DNA of 64,000 nt. Source: Nannocystis pusilla (GTDB lineage: Bacteria > Myxococcota_A > Polyangia > Nannocystales > Nannocystaceae). Each line of letters opens with the position of its first letter. Within the stretch, counting starts at the first letter, position 1. The stretch is taken from NCBI RefSeq assembly GCF_049060185.1, contig NZ_JBMEQO010000002.1; one strand, given 5' to 3'. A program made the position numbers and the translations under genes. Positions 58,140-58,215 of this stretch are shown here, piece after piece. The notes beneath the pieces were generated by a model. That model did no database searches. It saw nothing but the letters and a program-made list of their open reading frames with translations, and was not told where the DNA came from.

Positions 58140-58215
58140 AGGAGCATGTCCTTCCGGACATGCCCATGCGGACATGCCCTTCTGGACATGCCGCCACGGA
58201 CACGTCCTTCCCCTC
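58140..58215. repeat. Five tandem GGACATGYCC decamers with 14-bp periodicity.
   Basis: GCATGTCC ttcc GGACATGCCC atgc GGACATGCCC ttct GGACATGCCG ccac GGACACGTCC. Confidence 0.75.

What the first reader, a model, noticed from the sequence alone, without database searches (positions are those of the whole stretch)
58140..58215. Five tandem GGACATGYCC decamers with strict 14-bp periodicity between a membrane-protein gene and the 3' end of a histidine kinase gene
This is the most regular instance of the palindrome family: GCATGTCC-ttcc-GGACATGCCC-atgc-GGACATGCCC-ttct-GGACATGCCG-ccac-GGACACGTCC. A 14-bp repeat of a palindromic 10-mer is more consistent with cooperative binding of a multimeric protein, or an iteron-like array, than with a simple terminator hairpin.
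Basis: seen in the sequence. Interest (0 to 1): 0.5.

Follow-up and report, generated by a model that had tools for sequence, protein, structure and literature searches.

The report
Phased decamer palindromes at gene ends
The five repeats belong to a dispersed repeat family found almost only in the myxobacterial genus Nannocystis: strictly 14-bp-phased copies of the palindrome GGRCATGYCC that sit just after stop codons, mostly between converging genes, resembling the REP elements of E. coli but built differently and not described in the papers I could search.

Summary
Window 58142-58211 holds five GGRCATGYCC decamers at an exact 14-bp period. They lie 12 nt after the stop of a membrane-protein gene and 6 nt before the stop of a converging histidine-kinase gene.

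The array is not unique. The window has 16 such arrays, against 0.02 in shuffles. A three-unit pattern scanned over one genome from each of 185,579 species gave 50 loci, 49 of them in Nannocystis. A metagenome scan gave 43 more.

Across about 180 arrays:
- Arrays have 2-7 units.
- Spacing is 14 bp in 318 of about 390 neighbour distances, with 12 or 13 bp seen twice.
- Spacers have no consensus.
- 59% of placed arrays lie between convergent genes (baseline 21%) and 5% between divergent genes (17%).

The focal array is present, in phase and without indels, in five Nannocystis species. Its CATG core is 92-100% identical while its spacers are randomised.

Neighbouring units carry compensatory changes more often than non-neighbours (34/320 against 12/307). 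However, the focal array shows no covariation, and no strand bias held up.

Best reading: a REP/BIME-like element at gene 3' ends, read by an unknown sequence-specific factor. The main rival is a phased lattice for a DNA-binding protein. It is not an iteron array and not a canonical terminator.

The parts
58142..58211 (.). Focal array. Five 14-bp units, each a decamer plus a 4-nt spacer, with decamers at 58142-58151, 58156-58165, 58170-58179, 58184-58193 and 58198-58207.
   Evidence: Conserved in phase in N. exedens, N. pusilla, N. sp. RBIL2 and N. punicea.
57396..58129 (+). Upstream converging gene: a conserved hypothetical membrane protein, 245 aa in orthologues. The window copy is frameshifted near 57623. 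Stop codon TGA at 58127-58129, 12 nt before unit 1.
58214..59194 (-). Histidine kinase gene (HAMP and HATPase_c domains). Its stop at 58214-58216 lies 6 nt after unit 5.
   Evidence: orthologue lengths; ATG at 59192-59194.
47837..47906 (.). Five-unit array of the same family. It starts directly after the stop of gene 47108-47836 (+) and lies between convergent genes.
51516..51571 (.). Four-unit array between convergent genes 51153-51485 (+) and 51610-53868 (-).
42478..42533 (.). Four-unit array starting at the first base after the stop of gene 41431-42477 (+). A further 2-3 units lie at 42572-42609. The gene's 3' end (window 42184-42470) matches L033 1238-1524, just upstream of the L033 array at 1547 in N. 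bainbridge.
28512..28535 (.). Two perfect units, GGACATGTCC ctgc GGACATGTCC, between convergent genes.
28588..28611 (.). Two units with a compensated change, GGACATGGCC ttcg GGCCATGTCC. Together they form a perfect 10-bp inverted repeat.
5629..5666 (.). Three-unit array in the intergenic region between two - strand genes. It carries two compensated positions. A further unit lies at 5511-5520.
27615..27638 (.). Two-unit array 7 nt after the stop of gene 26939-27607 (+).
45492..45515 (.). Two-unit array. It lies at or near the 5' end of the - strand gene that ends at 44011.
59230..59253 (.). Two-unit array 36-59 nt upstream of the histidine-kinase start codon. It is conserved in N. sp. RBIL2 and N. 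exedens. This is an exception to the 3'-end rule.
59539..59562 (.). Degenerate two-unit array inside the third copy of the 71-bp tandem repeat.
41890..41913 (.). Weak two-unit array that falls, in frame, inside the variable low-complexity part of ORF 41431-42477.
4372..4395 (.). Two-unit array about 80 nt inside the 3' end of ORF 4290-5516 (-), by the crude gene call.
43199..43222 (.). Two-unit array inside ORF 42611-43618 (+), by the crude gene call.

Best explanation
The array is one copy of a Nannocystis-wide dispersed repeat family that works like the REP/BIME elements of enterobacteria. It is a cis-acting module at the ends of transcription units.

Each 14-bp unit is a self-complementary decamer (GGRCATGYCC) plus a free 4-nt spacer. 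Any two neighbouring units can therefore fold into a 10-bp stem with a 4-nt loop, on either strand. An array between converging genes would then give both transcripts a string of 3' hairpins. I infer that these hairpins impede read-through into the opposing gene and/or protect the mRNA 3' end from exonucleases. Arrays grow and shrink by slippage of single 14-bp units.

The invariant CATG core and the near-inviolable 14-bp phase show that a sequence-specific factor also reads the units. This is most likely a dimeric protein, either a mobilising or maintaining enzyme or a binding protein.

Shown here: the family, its anatomy, its phase, its gene-end location, its conservation across species, the pairing potential, the neighbour-specific compensation and the unit duplication.

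Inferred, not shown: termination or stabilisation, and the existence and nature of the reader protein.
For: Family and taxonomic range:
- 49 of 50 genome loci with the three-unit pattern are in Nannocystis.
- A metagenome scan gave 43 more loci.
- The window has 16 arrays, against 0.02 expected.

Location:
- 85 of 144 placed arrays lie between convergent genes, against 113 of 537 intergenic regions (odds ratio 5.4, p = 2e-17).
- Only 7 of 144 lie between divergent genes, against 90 of 537.
- In co-directional contexts the array sits a median 8-15 nt after the upstream stop codon, with the next gene usually hundreds of bp away.
- Arrays between convergent genes are longer than co-directional ones: 3.8-4.9 units against 3.1-3.8.

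Pairing:
- Deviations from the consensus are matched by the complementary base at the mirror position of the adjacent unit 26 times, against 11.6 +/- 3.2 under unit shuffling (0 of 1000 shuffles reached this).
- The compensated positions span most of the stem, including pairs 22-24 nt apart.
- The effect is specific to neighbours: lag 1 gives 34/320, lags 2-3 give 12/307, p = 0.0012.
- Both strands of the focal array fold better than shuffles: -40.2 kcal/mol (z = -2.6) and -48.9 kcal/mol (z = -4.0).

Growth by slippage:
- Adjacent spacers are identical in 17 of 169 cases, against 1.9 expected.
- Orthologous arrays differ by single units.

Selection:
- The focal array is retained in five species.
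- In its orthologues, decamer positions 3-7 (ACATG, which contains the CATG core) are 92-100% identical and the spacers 28-42%.
- For comparison, third codon positions of the flanking gene are 86-91% identical among the four closer species.

Functional precedent: E. coli REP325 acts both as a partly Rho-dependent terminator and as an mRNA stabiliser. [quoted passage not shown]
Against: - The polymorphic positions 3 (R) and 8 (Y) show no covariation between neighbouring units. A-C mismatches are common.
- In the five-species alignment of the focal array, either hairpin register gives about 75% paired cells, the same as the shuffled control. Substitutions there break pairs rather than preserve them.
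- An apparent sense-strand preference for the G-U-compatible unit type (41 against 23) did not replicate in the metagenome set (5 against 14). Combined it is 46 against 37, p = 0.38.
- The compensation signal is not significant on its own in the metagenome set.
- Hairpin function alone does not explain why the spacing is 14 bp in 318 cases and 12 or 13 bp in only 2.
- Hairpin function alone also does not explain why CATG is 95-98% invariant.
- No U-tract follows the hairpins.
- No RAYT-type enzyme or any other partner protein was identified.
- Some arrays lie 5' of genes or inside ORFs.
- Gene calls came from a crude GC3-based caller.
Confidence: 0.4

Rival explanations
1. The arrays work as double-stranded DNA. 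Each palindromic decamer binds a dimer of an unidentified sequence-specific protein. The fixed 14-bp register (about 120 degrees of helical rotation per unit, with three units making four turns) allows cooperative, filament-like binding. The occupied lattice at gene ends would act as a transcriptional roadblock or insulator, or as a topological site such as gyrase or nucleoid-protein binding, between converging transcription units. The nearest paradigms, from my own knowledge, are MetJ on tandem 8-bp palindromic metboxes, and the omega and ParR ribbon-helix-helix proteins on short repeat arrays.
For: - The phase is strict although the spacers have no sequence conservation: 14 bp in 188 and 132 cases, 12 or 13 bp in 2 cases.
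- There are no indels across five units in five species while the spacers are randomised.
- The CATG core is 95-98% invariant and the outer positions are less so, as in a recognition logo.
- R at position 3 and Y at position 8 vary independently and without covariation. This looks like purine/pyrimidine read-out. RCATGY is a known protein recognition pattern, for example NspI (own knowledge).
- There is no strand asymmetry in co-directional contexts.
- The focal array conserves sequence, not pairing.
- Unit number changes by single units rather than by pairs.
Against: - No candidate protein was found.
- I know of no bacterial precedent for very large numbers of operator-like arrays placed at gene 3' ends.
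- The model does not predict the neighbour-specific compensatory changes. These could, however, be a mutational by-product of hairpin-templated repair.
- It does not by itself predict the tight placement a few nt after stop codons.
- The two half-site centres are only 5 bp apart, which excludes classical helix-turn-helix dimers binding on one face of the DNA (inference).
Confidence: 0.3
2. The arrays are a selfish or mutationally driven repeat with no host function. Decamer pairs would be seeded by a dedicated enzyme (for example a RAYT-like HUH transposase) or by chance, expand by slippage, and be tolerated only where they do no harm, namely promoter-free regions downstream of genes.
For: - The distribution is genus-restricted and high-copy.
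- There is clear evidence of unit duplication.
- Arrays are depleted from divergent, promoter-containing regions, as expected from purifying selection against insertions there.
- Copy number varies between species.
Against: - The focal array has persisted at the same site, in phase, in five species. Its core positions are far better conserved than its spacers or than synonymous sites. That indicates selection or continuing correction, not neutral decay.
- There is no conserved flanking tetranucleotide or terminal structure that a transposase could use.
- Placement within 0-20 nt of stop codons is tighter than simple tolerance predicts.
Confidence: 0.13
3. The decamer is a genus-specific recognition tag for another DNA transaction, for example a DNA-uptake sequence like the Neisseria DUS or Haemophilus USS (which often occur as inverted pairs in terminators), or a methylation or restriction-related site.
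For: - It is a genus-specific, strongly over-represented 10-mer.
- It is often located downstream of genes.
- The core RCATGY resembles a type II recognition sequence (own knowledge).
Against: - Exact decamers are almost all intergenic, or at most at gene borders, and clustered in phase. Uptake sequences, by contrast, are spread through coding DNA (own knowledge).
- Uptake or methylation tags need no 14-bp phasing.
- Restriction sites are usually avoided rather than amplified.
Confidence: 0.05
4. The array is an iteron array or origin-like element that controls replication, or a unique operator regulating the adjacent histidine kinase.
For: The only support is the formal resemblance: a short repeat in tandem next to a regulatory gene.
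Against: - There are 16 arrays in 64 kb and about 180 in the loci studied, next to unrelated genes.
- The array lies at the 3' ends of both neighbouring genes.
- No rep gene was noticed next to the array, and the region is not AT-rich (77.7% G+C in 58001-60000). DnaA boxes were not searched for.
- The unit length of 14 bp is below the usual 17-22 bp of iterons (own knowledge).
Confidence: 0.02

Closest known systems
REP / BIME / REPIN elements of Enterobacteriaceae and Pseudomonas
   Same: - Short, palindromic, extragenic and high-copy, with a lineage-specific sequence.
- Located after stop codons within operons and between convergent genes.
- Occur singly or in arrays of variable copy number.
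- Conserved sequence beyond what pairing requires.
- Proposed to act as a terminator and mRNA stabiliser.
   Different: - Here the unit is a perfect-type 10-bp palindrome that is too short to fold on its own. Hairpins need two neighbouring units, so direct and inverted copies are equivalent.
- Spacers have a fixed length of 4 nt but free sequence. BIME linkers, by contrast, are conserved motifs.
- There is no GTAG or CGTC-type head tetranucleotide.
- No RAYT gene is known for this family.
- The period is only 14 bp.
MetJ metbox arrays, and the omega and ParR ribbon-helix-helix repeat operators or centromeres (own knowledge)
   Same: - Two to about ten tandem copies of a short unit at a rigid period. 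The MetJ unit is palindromic.
- Each unit is bound by one dimer, with cooperativity between neighbours.
- Copy number varies between sites.
   Different: - Those arrays lie in promoters or plasmid centromeres and number a handful per genome.
- Their units are contiguous, with no free spacer.
- Here the arrays are dispersed every few kb at gene 3' ends, and no binding protein is known.
Neisseria DUS and Haemophilus USS pairs in terminators (own knowledge)
   Same: A genus-specific 10-12-mer, hugely over-represented, and frequently forming the stems of hairpins downstream of genes.
   Different: - DUS and USS are non-palindromic, common inside genes, and not phased in arrays.
- The Nannocystis decamer is palindromic, almost exclusively intergenic, and phased at 14 bp.
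Intrinsic (Rho-independent) terminators
   Same: G+C-rich hairpins a few nt after stop codons, and bidirectional when placed between convergent genes.
   Different: - There is no U-tract.
- The stem sequence is shared by hundreds of loci.
- Several hairpins occur in a fixed register.
Plasmid iterons
   Same: Tandem short repeats at a fixed period.
   Different: - Iterons are non-palindromic direct repeats of 17-22 bp.
- They lie at an origin next to a rep gene and occur as one cluster per replicon.
- None of these features applies here.

Membership tests
REP/BIME (REPIN) elements | Extragenic, high-copy, lineage-specific palindromic repeat | tested here: met
   - The window has 16 arrays, against 0.02 expected.
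- 49 of 50 genome hits are in Nannocystis.
- Most arrays are intergenic.
REP/BIME (REPIN) elements | Each element is an imperfect palindrome of about 20-40 nt that forms a hairpin | tested here: inconclusive
   Two units plus a spacer give a 24-nt hairpin. Neighbour-specific compensation is present across the family (34/320 against 12/307, p = 0.0012). It is absent at positions 3 and 8 and absent in the focal five-species alignment.
REP/BIME (REPIN) elements | Conserved head tetranucleotide (GTAG or CGTC type) next to the stem, used by the RAYT enzyme | tested here: not met
   Spacers and flanks have no conserved tetranucleotide. The flanks show only decayed units.
REP/BIME (REPIN) elements | A cognate RAYT (Y1/HUH transposase) gene in the genome, typically flanked by the repeats | not testable with these tools
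No whole Nannocystis genome could be screened.
REP/BIME (REPIN) elements | Preferred location after stop codons, within operons or between convergent genes | tested here: met
   Convergent contexts hold 85 of 144 arrays, against 113 of 537 intergenic regions. The median distance from the stop codon to the array is 8-15 nt.
Iterons | One cluster of 17-22-bp direct repeats at a replication origin next to an initiator gene | tested here: not met
   The units are 14 bp and palindromic. They are dispersed every 4-7 kb at gene 3' ends.
Intrinsic terminators | G+C-rich hairpin followed by a U-tract | tested here: not met
   Hairpins are predicted. The scan found no terminator-like site with a T-run in 57000-59500. 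Array flanks are not T-rich beyond 2-3 nt.
DNA uptake sequences (DUS/USS) | An over-represented genus-specific 9-12-mer spread through both coding and non-coding DNA | tested here: not met
   The decamer is over-represented and genus-specific. However, the exact copies in the window are almost all intergenic, or at most at gene borders, and phased.
Cooperative repeat operators (MetJ, omega or ParR type) | Tandem short units at a rigid period | tested here: met
   Spacing is 14 bp in 318 cases, with multiples of 14 otherwise. It is 12 or 13 bp in only 2 cases.
Cooperative repeat operators (MetJ, omega or ParR type) | Located in promoter or operator regions or plasmid centromeres, and bound by a known dimeric protein | tested here: not met
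   Arrays are depleted from divergent, promoter-containing regions (7 of 144). Protein binding is not testable here.
Rfam RNA families | A match to a curated covariance model | tested here: not met
   No family reaches its gathering score on the array. The only weak hit is M23 at E = 0.046, far below threshold and mostly outside the array.

The most novel reading that the evidence does not exclude
The decamer arrays could be the genome-wide binding lattice of an undiscovered sequence-specific protein that marks gene 3' ends in Nannocystis. This would be a protein-based system of bidirectional transcription termination, insulation or supercoil management. A dimer would sit on each GGRCATGYCC, and the 14-bp register would assemble the dimers into a helical filament. 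Bacteria are not known to use dedicated sequence-specific DNA-binding terminators on this scale.
Probability: 0.25. Interest if true: 0.8.

Novelty: new variant of a known kind. Interest (0 to 1): 0.55.

Why it matters
Very large, G+C-rich myxobacterial genomes (11-13 Mb here) have poorly understood transcription-unit boundaries, and canonical U-tract terminators are scarce in such genomes.

This repeat family has a simple, easily manipulated anatomy. It also carries unusually clean signatures of constraint:
- the CATG core is invariant;
- the spacer length is invariant;
- the spacer sequence is free;
- one array has held its position and phase across five species.

That makes two questions directly testable:
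- How do such bacteria end and insulate converging transcripts?
- Do REP-like repeats act as RNA hairpins, as protein-binding DNA, or as both?

The family is also a practical genus marker and a source of compact bidirectional 3' modules for engineering myxobacterial gene clusters. None of the literature searches in the available library returned a paper describing it in bacteria.

Tried and rejected
1. Sense-strand bias as a test for RNA-level selection. In the genome loci, co-directional contexts favoured the G-U-compatible unit GGGCATGTCC over GGACATGCCC (41 against 23). The independent metagenome set went the other way (5 against 14). Combined it is 46 against 37, p = 0.38. I dropped it.
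2. Covariation at the R/Y positions 3 and 8 between neighbouring units: none (odds ratios 1.1 and 1.4, not significant).
3. Covariation in the five-species alignment of the focal array, in both hairpin registers: no better than shuffles.
4. Special tetraloops or an alternating loop/linker pattern in the spacers: no consensus appeared, and there is no GNRA or UUCG enrichment.
5. Canonical terminator scan: nothing found.
6. Rfam at gathering and E-value thresholds: nothing relevant.
7. Viral contig scan with a two-unit pattern: four isolated pairs, about the chance level.
8. The single non-Nannocystis genome hit (L037, 'Nocardiopsis') is a plain 14-bp tandem repeat with identical spacers. It is probably unrelated.
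9. Literature searches. The decamer returns only p53 response-element papers, because it fits RRRCWWGYYY; I treat that as coincidence. Searches combining Nannocystis, repeats and REP/RAYT found nothing relevant. A MetJ metbox search found no papers, so that comparison rests on my own knowledge.
10. An exact-protein look-up to identify the window's genome failed. The window is not identical to any fetched locus. Orthologues place it in Nannocystis, about 90% aa identity to N. exedens, N. pusilla and N. sp. RBIL2.
11. The iteron and unique-operator reading was rejected because of the dispersed distribution.

Full report
**1. The observation**

Window 58142-58211 reads GAGCATGTCC ttcc GGACATGCCC atgc GGACATGCCC ttct GGACATGCCG ccac GGACACGTCC ttcc. 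Tandem Repeats Finder reports the array at period 14 and period 28.

The + strand gene stops at 58127-58129, 12 nt before unit 1. The - strand gene stops at 58214-58216, 6 nt after unit 5, so the two genes converge on the array.

The - strand gene is a histidine kinase with HAMP and HATPase_c domains. Its orthologues are 326-332 aa, so the window gene is 58214-59194.

The + strand gene is a conserved 245-aa hypothetical protein with a hydrophobic N-terminus. In this window it is interrupted by a frameshift near 57623.

**2. It is one copy of a family**

GGACATGYCC with up to 1 mismatch occurs 68 times in the window, against 9.0 +/- 3.7 in shuffles. The copies lie strikingly often exactly 14 bp apart. 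I count 16 phased arrays of at least 2 units, against 0.02 in block shuffles.

I scanned one genome from each of 185,579 bacterial and archaeal species for the pattern GGRCATGYCC-N4-GGRCATGYCC-N4-GGRCATGYC. This returned 50 loci, 49 of them from Nannocystis: N. bainbridge, N. pusilla, N. exedens, N. radixulma, N. sp. RBIL2 and two metagenome-assembled genomes. The exception, L037, is a plain 14-bp tandem repeat with identical spacers.

The same pattern found 43 metagenome contigs, 39 of them with at least 68% G+C.

The window itself is 68-78% G+C. Its proteins are about 90% identical to those of N. exedens, N. pusilla and N. sp. RBIL2. It is not identical to any fetched locus. It therefore comes from a Nannocystis species outside the representative genome set.

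**3. Anatomy**

The following comes from 125 arrays in 50 genome loci plus the window.

- **Array size.** Arrays have 2-7 recognisable units, usually flanked by decayed ones.
- **Unit logo**. The ten positions read G .82, G .87, R (A .66 / G .28), C .98, A .95, T .95, G .98, Y (T .57 / C .39), C .90, C .85.
- **Spacers.** The four spacer positions have no consensus. They are richer in A+T than the genome. The first is rarely A and the last is rarely T.
- **Phase.** Distances between successive good units are 14 bp in 188 cases, 28 bp in 27 and 42 bp in 8. They are never 12, 13, 15 or 16 bp.
- **Replication of the phase.** In the independent metagenome set the distances are 14 bp in 132 cases, 28 bp in 4, 27 bp in 2, and 12 and 13 bp once each.
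- **Slippage.** Adjacent spacers are identical in 17 of 169 cases, against 1.9 expected. This shows recent duplication of single 14-bp units.

**4. Location**

I used a crude gene caller based on third-codon-position G+C (GC3). This is adequate for strand and stop-codon position at about 95% GC3. Counts for arrays that could be placed between two called genes, both datasets combined:

| Context | Arrays | Baseline intergenic regions | Test |
|---|---|---|---|
| Convergent genes | 85 of 144 | 113 of 537 | odds ratio 5.4, p = 2e-17 |
| Divergent genes | 7 of 144 | 90 of 537 | odds ratio 0.25, p = 1e-4 |

- **Co-directional contexts.** Here the array abuts the stop codon of the upstream gene (median 8-15 nt). 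The next gene usually lies hundreds of bp away.
- **Convergent contexts.** Arrays there often fill the whole gap and are longer: mean 3.8-4.9 units, against 3.1-3.8.
- **Within the window.** Four of 12 convergent junctions carry arrays.
- **Exceptions.** About 14% of all arrays fall inside called ORFs. A conserved two-unit array lies 36 nt upstream of the histidine-kinase start codon.

**5. Conservation**

I fetched the loci that encode the orthologues of the upstream protein. The synteny is the same in N. exedens, N. sp. RBIL2, N. pusilla and N. punicea. The protein of N. punicea is only 70% identical to the window's.

All four species have the array at the same place. The five units align in phase without a single indel, and RBIL2 has a sixth unit.

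Pairwise identity by unit position:

| Position | 1 | 2 | 3 | 4 | 5 | 6 | 7 | 8 | 9 | 10 | spacer 1-4 |
|---|---|---|---|---|---|---|---|---|---|---|---|
| Identity | .84 | .66 | .92 | 1.0 | 1.0 | .92 | .92 | .50 | .72 | .58 | .40 .42 .28 .38 |

Third codon positions of the flanking gene are .86-.91 identical among the four closer species. The core and the phase are therefore under constraint and the spacer sequence is not.

Other orthologous pairs show the same pattern. Decamers are retained, spacers are partly or wholly replaced, and copy number changes by single units.

**6. Do neighbouring units pair?**

Because the decamer is self-complementary, any two neighbours can form a 10-bp stem with a 4-nt loop on either strand.

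Evidence for pairing:
- The focal array folds better than shuffles on both strands: -40.2 kcal/mol (z = -2.6) on the + strand and -48.9 kcal/mol (z = -4.0) on the - strand.
- Rare deviations from GGRCATGYCC are matched by the complementary base at the mirror position of the adjacent unit 26 times, against 11.6 +/- 3.2 after shuffling units (0 of 1000 shuffles reached this).
- The compensated positions span most of the stem.
- The effect is specific to immediate neighbours. Lag 1 gives 34/320 and lags 2-3 give 12/307 in the two datasets combined, p = 0.0012. In the metagenome set alone it is not significant.

Evidence against selection for pairing:
- The common R/Y polymorphisms at positions 3 and 8 do not covary between neighbours, and A-C mismatches are frequent.
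- In the five-species alignment of the focal array, both possible registers give about 75% paired cells, the same as the shuffled controls. There is no excess of double changes.
- A sense-strand preference for the G-U-compatible unit type, seen in the genome loci (41 against 23), did not replicate (5 against 14; combined p = 0.38).

Hairpins between neighbours are therefore real enough to leave a trace. That trace could come from selection or from hairpin-templated mutation. Pairing is not what is chiefly conserved.

**7. Interpretation**

The location and behaviour are those of REP/BIME-type elements. These are lineage-specific extragenic palindromes placed after stop codons and between convergent genes, in arrays of variable copy number. 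In E. coli they act as partial terminators and mRNA 3' stabilisers (bioRxiv 10.64898/2026.03.23.713779).

I take this as the most likely mode of action. An array gives both converging transcripts a string of 3' hairpins that limit read-through and 3' decay.

Four features are not explained by hairpins alone:
- the invariant CATG core;
- the free spacer sequence with a fixed spacer length;
- the lack of strand bias;
- the conservation of sequence rather than pairing.

These features imply a sequence- and phase-specific reader, most simply a dimeric protein.

Whether the working form is RNA or double-stranded DNA is unresolved. A purely DNA-level model fits the constraint data at least as well. 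In that model, dimers bind cooperatively every 14 bp, with about 120 degrees of rotation per unit. It is my main rival explanation and also the basis of the 'novel case'.

A selfish, function-less repeat is made less likely by the five-species conservation. Iterons, a private operator for the kinase, canonical terminators and uptake sequences each fail a defining feature (see the membership test).

**8. Novelty**

No Rfam family matches. None of the literature searches in the available library returned a paper describing this family in bacteria. The decamer retrieves only p53 response-element papers, a coincidental fit to RRRCWWGYYY.

I classify it as a new variant of a known kind. It is REP-like in location and probable role, but it is built from phased self-complementary decamers with free spacers. 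It lacks the REP head motif and has no known RAYT enzyme.

**9. Limits**

- The gene calls are crude.
- The loci were ascertained by a strict three-unit pattern. That pattern is symmetric, so it should not bias strand or context tests.
- Family-level covariation compares paralogous copies.
- No expression or binding data exist here.
- No whole genome could be screened for a partner enzyme.

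Noticed in passing
window 57396-58129 (junction near 57623-57626): The orthologue of a conserved 245-aa Nannocystis membrane protein is split between two reading frames. Residues 1-77 are in the frame of 57396 and residues 77-245 are in the frame of 57602. This is either a frameshift mutation (pseudogene) or a sequencing error.
   Followed up: partly
window 59392-59591: A 71-bp tandem repeat (2.8 copies, 95% matches) lies in the 850-bp non-coding stretch upstream of the histidine-kinase start. Each copy contains a degenerate pair of the decamers in 14-bp phase (CGACCTGTCC cgag CGCCATGTCG). The orthologous region of N. pusilla lacks this repeat and has a different 47-bp repeat instead.
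   Followed up: partly
window 59230-59253; L057 4840; L055 4833: A two-unit array lies 36-59 nt upstream of the histidine-kinase ATG and is conserved in N. sp. RBIL2 and N. exedens. The kinase gene is therefore bracketed by arrays at both ends. This is an exception to the 3'-end rule and could hint at a regulatory use.
   Followed up: partly
window 47823-47836: A 14-nt patch made only of A and T (TTTTAATATTTTAA) lies directly before the five-unit array at 47837. It contains the TAA stop of the upstream gene and stands out in a 72% G+C genome. Similar A/T runs flank arrays in L040 (tttttaaa) and L020 (aaaatttg).
   Followed up: no
L031 2747-3008 and 6903-7189 (inverted); also L021 7170-7466 and L041 3694-3995: A dispersed repeat of about 280 bp contains a long hairpin (L031 2775-2878). 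It scores only against miRNA-precursor models, well below their thresholds. In L031 it lies right next to the most homogeneous array seen, six copies of the decamer (five GGGCATGTCC, one GAGCATGTCC) with identical gatg spacers. It may be a MITE-like element.
   Followed up: partly
window 41890-41913, 43199-43222, 4372-4395: Three weak two-unit arrays fall inside ORFs by my crude gene calls. The one at 41890 is in frame, within a poorly conserved low-complexity linker of gene 41431-42477. If real, the family can occasionally be carried within coding sequence.
   Followed up: partly
the decamer itself: GGRCATGYCC fits the vertebrate p53 half-site RRRCWWGYYY, so the literature search returned only p53 papers. 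Its core RCATGY equals the NspI-type restriction recognition sequence (own knowledge). The p53 match is almost certainly coincidence. The RCATGY match suggests checking Nannocystis methylomes.
   Followed up: no
window 60048-61100 (-): The gene next to the kinase's upstream region encodes a DUF4123 protein. Orthologous loci carry the same gene. The locus was not examined further.
   Followed up: no
L037 7362-7417 ('Nocardiopsis sp.' 10.7-kb contig): This is the only non-Nannocystis genome hit to the three-unit pattern. It is a simple tandem repeat, GGGCATGTCC gggc repeated three to four times, with identical spacers. It is probably an unrelated microsatellite-like repeat or contamination.
   Followed up: partly
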